From Octopus vulgaris (taxonomy: Eukaryota), in contig OX597831.1 of assembly GCA_951406725.2 (NCBI GenBank), positions 40,238,001-40,302,000 on the forward strand: a stretch of DNA of 64,000 nt. Reading direction: 5' to 3'. Below, piece after piece: positions 13,957-36,366 of this stretch. Under the pieces are notes generated by a model. That model saw only the letters and a list, made by a program, of their open reading frames with translations, searched no databases and was not told the origin of the DNA. Position 1 is the stretch's first letter; each line of letters opens with the position of its first letter. Both the position numbers and the translations under genes were made by a program.

Positions 13957-14022
<66 letters not shown>

Positions 14023-14340
14023 AAGAGCGTAGGCTCGAAACGTAAAAGACTTGTTTTATTTATATTCCTGAGCGCCATACTAATACAATTGTTTGTTTGT
14101 ATTCCACCTGCCTTCGTCTTTTGTTTATTTTCGTAAAGCTTCCCGTTATATATATATATATATATATATACATACATATATACGATGGGCTTCTTTCAGT
14201 TTCCGTCAACCAAATCCACTCACAAGGCTTTGGTCGGCCCGAGGCTATAGTAGAAGACACTTGCCCAAGGTGCCATGCAGTGGGACTGAACCCGGAACCA
14301 TGTGGTTGGTAAGCAAGCTACTTACCACACAGCCACTCCT
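13738..14340 (-). mobile_element. SINE family B with a HHR element nested in its internal (TA)n
   Basis: SINE halves 13738-13960 and 14170-14340 flank an insert at 14018-14147. Confidence 0.85.
14018..14049 (+). ncRNA. 5'-truncated minimal hammerhead, A6U variant
   Basis: TGTTGA-A-GAGC-GTAG-GCTC-GAA-ACGT-A-AAAGA; same family as 36328-36366. Confidence 0.55.
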
Positions 14341-14968
14341 AATATTATTAGGAATTGTATATGAAAAAAATGTTGAAATATTTTATGTATTTGTGTATTG
14401 TAAGTATTTTATTTCCAATCAATTTATACAACCAAATCTTATATCGATTCCCCCAAAAGTCACATGAAGCCCGTAGGGCCACATGGACCCCTGTTGAGAA
14501 CGTCTGTATCCGAACGCTGACTATGTCTTATCTGAGATGATATTCACTCAAAGCCTGTAACATATCGATCTCATTCACCAAGCTGGAGGGCGTATGATAT
14601 ATGTATACGAAGCTCGTGGACATTGCCCTCTCTCTCCCTCCCCCTTTCTTTCTCTCTCTCTTCCTTCCACTACCACCACCCATTCTGCTTGACCGAAGCC
14701 ATATGATAACATGTCAAAACGAGGCCAATATATTGATATCATAAATTTTATAATCTCGAGGTTAGGAAAACTGCTATCAGCATCCTTTATTGATAAACAC
14801 CACCCATCTCACCACACGTGTCTCTCTCTCTTCTTTTCTTTCTACCTCGCTATCTTCTTCTCTATCTTTCGCTCTCTCTCTTTTTTCTTCTTTCTTTGTA
14901 TTTTCTCTCTCCTCCTTCTTTCCTTTTCTACAACGACCTCTCTCTCTCTCTCTCTCTCTCTTACACAG

Positions 14969-15001
<33 letters not shown>

Positions 15002-15261
15002 TTATCTTTCTCTTTCTTTCACTATCTCTCGCTCGCTCTTTTTACTCTCTTTCTCTTTTCTTTCTACAACGATTCCCTCTCTCTCTCTTTATCTCACTTC
15101 TTTCTTTCTCTATCTCACTTCTTTGTCTTTCTATCGCGCTATTTCTTTCGCTATCTTTCGCTCTGTCTTTCATTTTTTTTCTTTGTATTTTTCTCGCTTC
15201 GCTCTTTCATTTTTGACTAAGACTTCTCTCTCATCCTCTCTCCCTCCACCTCTCTTTCTCT

Positions 15262-15295
<34 letters not shown>

Positions 15296-15401
15296 ATCCC
15301 TCTCTCATTCTCCCCCATCTTGCTTATCTTTCTTTCGCTCTTTCCTTTGTATTTTATTCTCACCTCTCTGTCTCTTCCTCAACAATCTTTCCCTCTTTCT
15401 T

Positions 15402-15459
<58 letters not shown>

Positions 15460-15755
15460 TAACACAGTGTTTCCCTTTGCGTTTCTTTCTATCTCACTTT
15501 CTCTTTTACGCTATCTTTCGCTCTCTCTTATCTTTCGTTGTATTTCATCTTCGCTCTTTCTACTACGACTTCTCTGTCTCGCCTCTGTCTGTCTGTCTGT
15601 CTCTCTCTCATTTTTTTCTATTTCTTCTTGCCTTTTTTTCTTTCTTGGATTATTTTCGCTATTTTCGTCTTCGGTACACTTGGTTTTTGTTGTTATATTT
15701 TTGTTGTTGTGAGTGCGTAGGTGGTGAGTGGAGATGGTAGGGGGAAGCATTTTAC

Positions 15756-33320: not shown

Positions 33321-33665
33321 TGCCTCGAGTAACGAACACGCAAGTCAGGGGGCTTCTTTCAGTTTCCGTCTACCAAATTCACTCACGAGGCTTTGTTCGA
33401 CTCGAGGCTACAAAAGAAGACACTTGCTCAAAATGGCACTCAGTGGGACTGGACCCAGAACCGTGTGGTTGGGAAGCAAACTTCTTACCACACCGCCGCG
33501 CTTATCGTATGTATTACTGTTCTTCCTAATGAAAATATCATTGGTTGAGTTTGAAAAAATGAATTAAATACACGAATTGCAAAGAAGGATCACTTAAATT
33601 TATGCATAAAATCCTTTCAGTTGTTAAACGTTTAATATTTGTGCTGTAATAGTTAAAATAAAGAG

Positions 33666-34105
33666 GACGGCGAGCTGGCAGAAACGTTAGTTAGTACGCC
33701 GGACGAAATGCGTGGCTGTATTTCGTCTGCCGTTACGTTCTGAGTTCAAATTCCGTTGAGGTCGACTTTGCCCTTCATCCTTTCGGGGTCGATAAATTGA
33801 GTACCAGTTACGCACTGGGGTCGATATAATCAACTTAATCCGTTTGTCTGTCCTTGTTTTTCCTCTCTGTGATTAGCCCCTTGTGGGTAGTAAAGAAATA
33901 GGCATTTCATCTGCCGTTACGTTCTGAGTTCAAATTCCACCGAGGTCGACTTTGCCTTTCATCCTTTTGGGGTCGATTAAATAAGTACCAGTTACGCACT
34001 GGGGTCGATATAATCGACTTAACCCGTTTGTCTGTCCTTGTTTGTTCCCTCTGTGTGTAGCCCCTTGTGGACAATTAAGAAATAGGTATATCATCTGTCT
34101 TTACG
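33666..34105 (+). mobile_element. SINE family A, tandem dimer
   Basis: Body repeated at ~33720-33900 and ~33905-34085. Confidence 0.85.
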
Positions 34106-34109
34106 TTCC

Positions 34110-35718
34110 GAGGATTTCTCGGTTTTCTGTGAATCGATTTTGATAAAACTTTTCGCAGTTAGTTTGCACACTATGGCAACACCAATATTAATGCCGCTGG
34201 GGTCGACTTTGCCTTTCATCCTTTCGGGGCCGATTAAATAAGTACTAGCTATGCACTGGGGTCGATGTAATCGACTTAATCCCTTACCCAAATTTTAGGC
34301 CTTGTGCTTCCAATAGAAAGGATTATTCTGTGTAACGCCCTTTCTTTTATTTCAGATTCTTCAGTTTTTTAGTGAACCACGCTAATAGCTTCCGAATAAA
34401 AATGGCCCTAGACATTTTTTTTTTTTCGGAAAATAAAGGGTAATGATACATATTAAGCATACATTGAGTATATATTTAGCAGAAAACCATAATAATAATA
34501 TAACATTTATTGACATAATGAATTATTTAACCACATGTGCGCCATTTCGATGGATAACTTCAAAAACCCTATTAGTCATGGAATCTGTCAATTTCTTAAT
34601 AGTAGCAGGCTGGACTGCCTTTGCTGCAGATTTGATGGTCGCTCATGAAATATATTTCGATGTAAACTGGCGCCCATTGGCGAATACATCTTGTTAAATG
34701 ATGGACCAAAGACTTTCGATAGGGTTGAGATCCGGAGATGCTGGTAGTGACACCATCAACCTTTCACCTTATATGTCGTAAGACCCCTCGTTATGTTTGG
34801 GTGGTCCTAGCAGAGTGGGAGGGAGCGTTGTCATGCATGAATACTAGATTCCTTAGAAGTGGCAGCGGCATGTCAACTAGCCAGGGAGCCAAGACAGGAA
34901 ATTGCAGTAGGCGGCTGCGGTCATTTTAACCTCTTCAAGCACCCTGATTGGGCTAACAAGTATGTCCCTAATGACTCCAGCCCATAACATGACGCTCCCG
35001 CCCTGTTGTTGACATCGTAAACGTTGGTGGCACTCATCTCCAAAATAGACCCAAACATTTGCCCAACCGTCAGGTCCGTCAAGGGTCGCCCTGGTTTCGT
35101 CAGTGAACAGAACACAACTCATGTTTAACATCATGTACTTTTTAGCTCATTGAAGCCTCAAATTCCTGTGACGGGGCATTAAAGGAAGCAGTTTCTGGGG
35201 TTCTCGCACGGAAGCCATAATCCCGAGGATGCGATTTCTGGTGGTTTTCGGTACATGAGGAAGTCCTGGGGCGGTGAAAATGGCTTTACTTGTTTGTCCG
35301 GGTTTCCCACATAACTTGCGGCCAATATTCCTTAAATCCCTAGCTGCCACGGTCTTTGACATCCCATAATCGGATCGTTTCTTCCTTGGCGAAGGGTCCT
35401 TCAGGAATCGTCTAACCGTGTCCACATGACGACCTAACTTCTCTGCAATAACACGAAGAGAAGTGTCTTTAGCACTTCACTTCATGATGACACTCTTCTT
35501 CATCGTTAAGTTAAGGCCTTTTCCACGTCCCATTGTTCTTAGAGCGGAGAGACGCAATTAGAGTGGCTCACACCAAAATAAACAATCTAAAATAATAAAA
35601 AAAAGAACGTTACACAACAATGGAATTGGCATAGTGTACAAACCAGCTTCGAAAAATTTTATCAAAATCGATTCAAAGAAAAGCGAGAAATCCTAAGCTA
35701 TTTTCGTGGTCCTGGGTA
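34110..35718 (-). mobile_element. Decayed Tc1-like DD37E (TRT-type) transposon
   Basis: ORF from ATG 35533 (MGRGK) to ~34523; VLFTDETRATLDGPDGW, MHDNAPSH, SPDLNPIE; 112 nt (37 codons + 1) between D and E; ~70-bp inverted repeats at 34112-34183 and 35621-35692; SINE A fragment inserted at ~34195-34325. Confidence 0.85.
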
Positions 35719-36057
35719 TGTATATATATTATATATTATATGTATTATATATATATAATGAGAAACGAAAACATAAACACAAAACCAAGGAAATGGACAT
35801 TTTTCTTAAACAACGAAAAAATAGAGTACAGGACATAGAACACAAGGTAAATTCCCCTTCTTCAGTCGCCTCTGTTTCATCTACTCCGCGTTCCGAAGGT
35901 CATGGCGAGACACGTCTTCGGTGAAAATTCCTTCGCTTTTACTCCCTCTCCTCACTTAGCGGTCATTCAAATAGCTCTTTTGTCTTTATAGCGGTCAATC
36001 ACACAGTAATTTCCCTTCGTATAACGGTCATTTTTCATAGTATTTTTCCGATGGCCG

Positions 36058-36118
36058 GATAACCGAAGAGATGGCAGCGTGGATTTCCACCTCGGCATCC
36101 GAAACTCTGAGTTTTATC
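36058..36118 (+). ncRNA. Type I hammerhead ribozyme, U4C core variant
   Basis: GATAA-CCGAAGA-GATG..(GTGGA/TCCAC)..CATC-C-GAA-ACTC-T-GAGT-T-TTATC. Confidence 0.65.
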
Positions 36119-36327
36119 ATGGCTACCGAATAATTGTCACATATTACATTTACAGATAAATTCCTCTATTTACATTATATCGAGGTCTCTTACATTCTTT
36201 TGTTGTCTTATATATATATATGTGTATATAACGGGAAGCTTTATGAAAATAGACAAAAGACGAAGGCAGGTGGAAAACAAACAAACAATTGTATTAGTAT
36301 GGCGCTCAGGAAATATAAATAAAACAA

Positions 36328-36366
36328 GTTTTTAACGTTTCGAGCCTACGCTCTTCAACAGAAAGA
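36328..36366 (-). ncRNA. Minimal hammerhead, A6U variant
   Basis: Minus strand TCTTT-CTGTTGA-A-GAGC-GTAG-GCTC-GAA-ACGT-T-AAAAA; element 36228-36400 is homologous to 14018-14147. Confidence 0.6.

What the first reader, a model, noticed from the sequence alone, without database searches (positions are those of the whole stretch)
14018..36366. Natural series of hammerhead core variants in one locus
Seen: CUGAUGA and CUGACGA (canonical), GUGAACA (20687-, G3-C8), UUGAAAA (17803-, U3-A8), CUGUUGA (36328-, with the same UGUUGA in the 14018+ copy, A6U) and CCGAAGA (36058+, U4C). Several have an extra purine between A9 and stem II. Known: positions 3 and 8 form a Watson-Crick pair that tolerates covariation. 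Inference: the compensated 3-8 swaps support real ribozyme origin, and the shared A6U may be a family-level variant that standard CUGANGA searches miss.
Basis: partly seen in the sequence, partly recalled or inferred. Interest (0 to 1): 0.72.

Follow-up and report, generated by a model that had tools for sequence, protein, structure and literature searches.

The report
Penelope hammerheads with lineage-fixed core variants
These motifs are hammerhead-type RNA motifs at the ends of four families of Penelope-type jumping genes scattered through this animal genome; three odd cores are shared by thousands of copies and one is a single-copy mutation, and the commonest family keeps a change that likely makes it a slow or self-locked cutter, which is untested.

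Summary
All five variant motifs are present, but they are not a locus-specific series. Each is the end of a dispersed Penelope-like retrotransposon (PLE) family, a known home of minimal type I hammerheads.

- U4C (36063+) is private decay: 29 of 29 other copies have U4.
- G3-C8 (20729-) and U3-A8 (17837-) mark two sister lineages (endonucleases 47% identical; 10,575 copies). 85 of 95 copies keep a Watson-Crick 3-8 pair, none C-G.
- A6U (36361-, 14018+) is fixed: 17,651 copies, 184 with A6, which scatter on the tree. N7 and H17 turn over between subfamilies while U6 and the rest of the core stay.
- No CUGACGA hammerhead was confirmed.

U3-A8 and the extra base after A9 are published for PLEs, and an engineered G3-C8 PLE hammerhead is partly active. 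I found natural A6U and natural G3-C8 in no paper searched, but Lunse 2017 was unreadable. U6 is predicted to pair with A15.1 and lock the core. 5' junctions show no excess at the cut site. The scan noted A6U before in another genome. Cleavage is untested.

The parts
36330..36365 (-). Family A minimal type I hammerhead motif, A6U core (CUGUUGA, extra A, 4-bp stem II, ACGU palindrome, H17 at 36334). Stem I has 3 of the family's 4 bp in this copy.
36209..36398 (-). Family A PLE 3' end (pLTR fragment), 95% identical to the pLTR of the full-length element L226
14017..14048 (+). Second family A motif, 5'-truncated at C3 by (TA)n; the 5' strand of stem I is lost
14010..14182 (+). Family A PLE fragment, 92-93% identical to the 36209-36398 copy and to L226
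20687..20736 (-). Family B type I hammerhead motif, G3-C8 core (GUGAACA, extra G, 5-bp stem II, AAUAUU palindrome, 7-bp stem I, H17 at 20694). The most complete copy in the window.
20592..20855 (-). Family B PLE 3' end, 99% identical to copies that carry the RT and endonuclease upstream
17804..17837 (-). Family D motif, U3-A8 core (UUGAAAA, extra G). This copy has C11.1A and lacks the 5' strand of stem I.
17706..18257 (-). Family D PLE 3' region, with an internal deletion of about 284 nt just upstream of the core relative to L232
36058..36118 (+). Family C type I hammerhead motif. The family core is canonical CUGAAGA; CCGAAGA (U4C) is private to this copy. H17 at 36113.
35929..36230 (+). Family C PLE 3' end, tail to tail with the family A copy in one (TA)n tract
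38547..38594 (-). Partner ORF not identified.

Best explanation
The motifs are minimal type I hammerhead motifs in the terminal repeats of four Penelope-like retrotransposon families, with A6U, G3-C8 and U3-A8 fixed in whole lineages and U4C private to one copy, and the fixed variants likely act as slow self-cutters that need a partner or the element's protein.

Shown: element identity, fixation, covariation, and turnover of N7 and H17 in the A6U lineage.

Inferred: (1) the pLTR promoter likely starts transcription just upstream of the motif; (2) with only a palindrome for stem III, the motif would cut as a dimer or with the PLE protein; (3) uncut RNA is likely the transposition template, so slow cores are tolerated; (4) in family A, U6 loses A6 contacts and is predicted to pair with A15.1 in a short helix (U4-G16.2, G5-C15.2, U6-A15.1) that hides the palindrome and would further slow cutting. 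The window copies are dead insertions; only the 20729 copy retains all its stems.
For: Element identity: L226 is a full-length pLTR-ORF-pLTR element with an A6U motif in each repeat about 4.4 kb apart, RT PF00078 above cutoff, a C-X4-C-X2-C linker and a GIY-YIG hit below cutoff. Family B has upstream GIY-YIG PF01541 above cutoff and an RT stretch with YVDD but no Pfam hit. The family D endonuclease is 47% identical to B's.

Covariation: 52 G-C, 33 U-A, 3 wobble and 7 mismatches among 95 copies. The same split carries C-G versus U-A at 10.3-11.3 and different stem I and palindrome sequences.

A6U: of the first 100 downstream-anchored copies, 96 were readable: U6 93, C6 3, A6 0 (counted by eye). 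In the first 30 of them, only N7 varies freely among core positions 3-9. The 36-nt island is 33-35 of 36 identical between five subfamily majorities, while the young subfamily's flanks match the others at 64-77% upstream and 74-84% downstream. The A6 label is unclustered: 18 changes against 18.4 shuffled.

Self-lock: predicted P(G5-C15.2) is 0.31-0.90 in natural U6 copies against 0.01-0.24 in natural A6 copies, higher in each N7 class.

Literature: in a lizard PLE hammerhead, C3G/G8C partly restores cleavage, cleavage needs the protein, and uncut RNA is the main insertion substrate (PMC11167929).
Against: No cleavage data exist for any of these motifs. In a type III hammerhead, all single and double mutants of the CUGA region other than the G:C swap had low activity (PMC9901934), so A6U may be dead. 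5' junctions show no excess at the predicted cut site in A or B. Most copies are single: 0 of 135 loci had a same-strand second motif within about 1.5 kb. Unconstrained dimer folds did not give the double-hammerhead structure. The B/D 3-8 covariation is one lineage split, not 85 events. Two of the five subfamily sets were chosen by sequence that includes the motif. A6 copies (184) exceed G6 (about 56) by 3.3 to 1 against a background near 1.8 to 1, so a small old A6 subfamily may exist (weak group). H17 is U in B and D.
Confidence: 0.68

Rival explanations
1. The A6U motif no longer cuts. It has become a long irregular hairpin (stem II, tandem G-A pairs, then U6-A15.1 and G5-C15.2) kept as a protein-binding or promoter-proximal signal. 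G3-C8 and U3-A8 remain ribozymes.
For: The predicted fold favours the extended hairpin, P 0.90 in the young subfamily. Position-6 mutants are poor cutters in vitro. A6 revertants arise but have not spread. There is no cut-site junction excess.
Against: C3, U16.1 and stem I stay conserved although this fold does not need them. H17 varies almost only between A and U, and N7 changes even though U7-A14 would strengthen the hairpin.
Confidence: 0.22
2. U6 is fully compensated, for example by the dimer geometry, the element's protein or Mn2+, and family A cuts as well as canonical PLE hammerheads.
For: The core is conserved around U6 through several N7 changes. Natural A6C variants cut well in Mn2+ (PMC7151607).
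Against: No second-site change is visible in the core. The self-lock is predicted in all N7 classes.
Confidence: 0.07
3. The motifs are chance look-alikes, or neutral decay in repeats.
For: True for U4C. The 7441 (+) hit was not tested. Single-copy scores at 36361 and 17837 are not above chance.
Against: Fixation in thousands of copies with zero reversed-pattern controls, double changes at two pairs, and position in pLTRs.
Confidence: 0.03

Closest known systems
Minimal hammerheads (min-HHR) of metazoan Penelope-like elements, including the U3-A8 variant of Schistosoma Cercyon (Cervera and de la Pena 2014, PMC4209133; main text parts 1-2 of 4, supplement file 2 part 2 and passages read)
   Same: Type I order, palindrome in place of stem III, extra base between 9 and 10.1, G10.1-C11.1, short stem I, mostly solo truncated copies, U3-A8 core.
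   Different: No row of the supplementary alignment that I read has U6 or G3-C8, and no cephalopod row was among them. Their consensus is CUGANGAH, whereas B and D have G as the extra base.
Poseidon PLE hammerhead of Anolis (PAc; PMC11167929, passages read)
   Same: PLE pLTR hammerhead. C3G/G8C partly restores cleavage, uncut RNA is the main template, and no RNA ends were seen at the cut site.
   Different: G3-C8 there is engineered; here it is the natural state of a lineage. In L226 the motif lies about 0.7 kb before the first ATG, not across it.
Natural core variants A6C (phage Bcep176), U3-A8 and U4C (Perreault 2011, PMC3088659, section 8 and passages; PMC7151607, part 1 of 4)
   Same: Natural changes at positions 3/8, 4 and 6, with low but real activity for A6C.
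   Different: A6U and G3-C8 were not named in what I read. Those are rare single examples, not lineages of over 10,000 copies.
Neptune/Nematis and Hydra clades of PLEs (Craig 2021, PMC8557442, passages read)
   Same: C-terminal GIY-YIG, (TA)n targets, inverted 5'-truncated partners. A and B have the CX2-5CxxC linker; family C's linker resembles the Hydra CxCX5C form.
   Different: Clade membership was not tested against reference sequences.

Membership tests
Penelope-like element (EN+, C-terminal GIY-YIG) | RT followed by GIY-YIG endonuclease upstream of the terminal repeat, same strand | tested here: met
   A: RT PF00078 33.3 bits (cutoff 29.6), GIY-YIG 17.5-19.7 bits (below 22.6). B: GIY-YIG 24.7 bits and a YVDD RT stretch without a Pfam hit. 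D: 42-50% to B's RT-EN. C: weak GIY-YIG only, E 0.06-0.07.
Penelope-like element (EN+, C-terminal GIY-YIG) | Direct terminal repeats (pLTRs) flanking the ORF, and inverted 5'-truncated partners | tested here: met
   L226 has two same-strand pLTRs about 4.4 kb apart. Inverted partners are seen in B and D. Direct pLTR pairs were not found for B, C or D in the loci held.
Neptune or Nematis clade | CX2-5CxxC linker between RT and EN | tested here: met
   Found in A and B, not in C; definition. The motif does not separate the two clades.
Neptune, Nematis or Hydra clade | Placement in an RT phylogeny with reference elements | not tested
   No named reference set was held; one search gave relatives at 42-59% identity without clade names.
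Minimal type I hammerhead ribozyme | Order stem I - core - stem II - GAAA - palindrome - UH - stem I | tested here: met
   Met by families A, B, C, D and E. The window copies at 14018 and 17837 lack stem I.
Minimal type I hammerhead ribozyme | Watson-Crick pair between positions 3 and 8 | tested here: met
   85 of 95 B/D copies. In A, C3 in 30 of 30 and G8 in 29 of 30.
Canonical hammerhead core (CUGANGA) | A at position 6 | tested here: not met
   Family A: U6 in 93 of 96 readable copies; A6 in 184 against 17,651 total. Met in B, C, D and E.
Minimal type I hammerhead ribozyme | Self-cleavage after H17, as a dimer or protein-assisted | not testable with these tools
   The genomic proxy (5' junctions at the cut site) showed no excess.
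Rfam hammerhead families | Covariance-model hit | tested here: inconclusive
   No hammerhead family among the 150 listed of 315 hits at E up to 1; 165 lower hits were not shown.
Non-LTR retrozyme | Tandem repeats each holding a hammerhead, no ORF | tested here: not met
   0 of 135 loci with a same-strand second motif within about 1.5 kb. Families A, B and D extend into PLE coding sequence, and C weakly.

The most novel reading that the evidence does not exclude
An autonomous PLE lineage has kept a hammerhead with U at the 'invariant' position 6 through several subfamily turnovers because U6 builds a self-lock over the dimerisation palindrome. That would make it a protein- or partner-gated ribozyme switch that protects the transposition template. 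Its neighbours carry a natural G3-C8 core in thousands of copies, and their insertions record capped, uncut RNA starting 23 nt before the core.
Probability: 0.25. Interest if true: 0.72.

Novelty: new variant of a known kind. Interest (0 to 1): 0.46.

Why it matters
What hammerheads do for Penelope-like elements is still open: they cut poorly and were dispensable for insertion in the one in vitro system. This genome offers matched natural variants under apparent selection: sister lineages with G3-C8 and U3-A8, and a lineage of over 17,000 copies with U6 while N7 changed. Measuring them would show whether the element selects for cutting, for slow cutting, or only for the fold. In practice, CUGANGA-based searches miss at least 28,000 motif copies here (17,651 plus 10,575 pattern matches, nearly all non-canonical).

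Tried and rejected
- Rfam scan: the listed hits were microsatellite-driven miRNA-like matches.
- Cut-site footprint, family A: of the first 100 of 263 upstream-broken copies, 9 clear (3 more ambiguous) junctions lay at 0 to -2, against 10 at -15 and 6 at -7. All are TA or A microhomologies with (TA)n flanks (by eye; first 30 by script).
- Cut-site footprint, family B: of the first 100 of 371, 6, 7 and 8 junctions lay at 0, -1 and -2, against 9 at -4 and 7 at -12 (by eye). No spike; this is not evidence against cutting.
- Alternative register UUGAAGA for family A: rejected. It breaks stems I and II and would make position 4 the variable one.
- Alternative reading CUGUUGA for family D: rejected. 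It needs a 4-nt insert, and most copies have CUA-UUGAAAA.
- Expression: no RNA holder listed. Laid runs were contigs only and say nothing on ends or level. One search shows the family A motif region in runs of four coded organisms, but position 6 lay near contig ends, so U6 in other species is not established.
- Family E partner ORF: no PLE RT or EN hit in 15 loci except one short inconclusive hit.
- Upstream-junction profile for family A: confounded by microsatellites.
- Lunse, Weinberg and Breaker (PMC5785218) is not held; only its title was seen. It may describe such variants. Supplement file 1 of PMC4209133 could not be searched. PMC5785220 was a wrong paper.
- Paper searches for natural A6U or G3-C8: no such report in the listings shown. 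Only 20 hits each of 33, 102 and 39 were listed.
- Also read without finding these variants: bioRxiv 10.64898/2026.07.22.740005 (part 1 of 5), and passages of PMC6155905, PMC6765202 and PMC13725137.
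Full report
SETTING. The window is microsatellite-rich repeat DNA from a 2.8-Gb genome. I read it as octopus-like from its size and repeats; this is inference.

OBSERVATION. All five variant heptamers are present. The 14018 and 17837 copies fail because they lack the 5' strand of stem I. At 14018 a (TA)n flank replaces C3. At 17837 about 284 nt are deleted upstream of the core. One canonical CUGAUGA motif lies at 38589, outside the range. None of the 4 CUGACGA heptamers forms a hammerhead.

WHAT THEY BELONG TO. Each motif is the end of a dispersed repeat that typically runs into (TA)n. 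Family A (36361, 14018) extends in longer copies into a GIY-YIG endonuclease. L226 is a full element: terminal repeat with motif, about 0.6 kb of leader, RT (PF00078 above cutoff), C-X4-C-X2-C linker, endonuclease, and a second repeat with motif 4.4 kb away. Its ORF is split by a frameshift and the upstream motif has C11.1U. Family B (20729) has GIY-YIG above cutoff and an RT stretch. Family D (17837) has an endonuclease 47% identical to B's, while A is 26-31% identical to either. Family C (36063) links only to a weak GIY-YIG hit, with a linker resembling the Hydra form. These are Penelope-like elements. Their terminal repeats are known to carry minimal hammerheads with an extra base after A9 and, in Schistosoma, U3-A8 (PMC4209133).

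VARIANT BY VARIANT. U4C: of the 30 nearest copies only the window copy has it; 28 read CUGAAGA and one has G5U. It is decay.

G3-C8 and U3-A8: one pattern that leaves positions 3 and 6-8 free finds 10,575 copies with 0 reversed controls. Among 95 copies read by script, 52 are G-C, 33 U-A, 3 wobble, 7 mismatched and none C-G. G-C goes with C-G at 10.3-11.3 (48 of 52) and U-A with U-A (32 of 33). Stem I (7 versus 3 bp) and the palindrome (AAUAUU versus AAUU) also differ yet still pair. This is one lineage split, so it counts as a few independent double changes, not 85.

A6U: 17,651 copies match with positions 6-8 free. In the first 100, position 6 is U 96, A 2, C 1, G 1, and position 7 is U 41, A 24, C 23, G 12 (by eye). 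A6 occurs in 184 copies and C6 or G6 in 430. Anchoring only on sequence 3' of the cut site (7,283 copies), 96 of the first 100 were readable: U6 93, C6 3, A6 0 (by eye). On a tree of the downstream flank (55 rows: 59 distinct copies less 4 with short flanks; the C6 and G6 forms were not sampled), A6 needs 18 changes against 18.4 for shuffled labels, while N7 broadly follows the subfamilies. Between five subfamily majorities the 36-nt island differs only at N7, H17 and one CpG site, whereas flanks differ by 5-36% (two of the five sets were chosen with the motif). The two positions a hammerhead leaves free are the ones that turn over, and U6 stays. One caution: A6 exceeds G6 by more than the background spectrum predicts, and a weakly supported group of old A6 copies exists.

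MECHANISM. Shown: structure, fixation and element context. Inferred: the motifs are slow, dimer- or protein-dependent cutters, and uncut RNA is what gets copied. Support from print: PLE hammerheads cut weakly even as dimers. In a lizard PLE, C3G/G8C partly restores cleavage, cleavage needs the protein, and mutants still insert (PMC11167929). In a type III hammerhead only the G:C swap rescues the CUGA region (PMC9901934), which favours activity for B and counts against it for A. Natural A6C is slow in Mg2+ and better in Mn2+.

Folding natural copies predicts that U6 pairs with A15.1 beside G5-C15.2 (P 0.31-0.90, against 0.01-0.24 in A6 copies), covering the palindrome needed for dimers. In the genome, 5' junctions show no excess at the cut site in A or B. 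In B, 30 of 55 copies begin 20-26 nt upstream of the core and only 5 extend further. At the commonest start, 14 of 20 junctions have G where the element has C (some rows are two views of one insertion, and some Gs fit microhomology). I read this as a transcription start with a copied cap, so these copies came from uncut RNA. A splice-acceptor reading of the same site is possible.

COMPARISON AND NOVELTY. The system is a known kind; U3-A8, the extra base and U4C are in print. Natural A6U and natural G3-C8 were not found in the searches named under Tried and rejected, but the most relevant paper (Lunse 2017) was unreadable. The scan noted a fixed A6U PLE hammerhead in another genome, an unchecked AI note. 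Family A fails the canonical-core test at position 6, so I file it as a hammerhead-derived variant that probably works like one.

VERDICT. Observation partly confirmed, interpretation partly supported. New variant of a known kind, interest 0.46.

Noticed in passing
L151-L180, L330-L389 (family B; window 20752 equivalent): 5' junctions cluster 20-26 nt upstream of the core (30 of 55), often with an extra G before AGAUGC. This is a likely transcription start with a copied cap. The same site also looks like a branch point, pyrimidine tract and CAG acceptor. Family D shows a looser cluster at 9-14 nt (18 of 37).
   Followed up: partly
L366, L367, L162: More distant members of the B/D clade with other loops: G3-U8 (L366), G3-C8 with D-type stem II (L367) and A3/C8 (L162). 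These may trace the route of the 3-8 swap.
   Followed up: no
L091-L120 (family D): 11 of 29 readable nearest copies share C11.1A with or including the window copy, which may be a sub-lineage with an open 10.1-11.1 pair. The set is biased toward the query.
   Followed up: partly
window 36063-36113 and L061-L090: Family C has a long stem II with a bulged C next to GAAA and a true 4-bp stem III, unlike the minimal families.
   Followed up: partly
Its family was not searched.
   Followed up: no
window 57924 (-) and 32327 (-): Possible decayed canonical hammerheads with broken stems.
   Followed up: no
window 12970-13063: Long near-perfect inverted repeat made by back-to-back pieces of an abundant short repeat; it draws spurious miRNA hits.
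   Followed up: no
window 23469-24011, 35147-35476, 32377-32862, 10899-11826, 50447-50758: Decayed transposase-like and retroelement-like ORF fragments. Family labels are recalled, not tested; 50447-50755 had no Pfam hit.
   Followed up: no
window 61371-64000: Tandem repeat of about 835 nt, copies 99% identical, with a diverged related piece at 35760-35934.
   Followed up: no
L231:427-2865: Another PLE family with RT and GIY-YIG-like ORF lies next to a family B copy.
   Followed up: no
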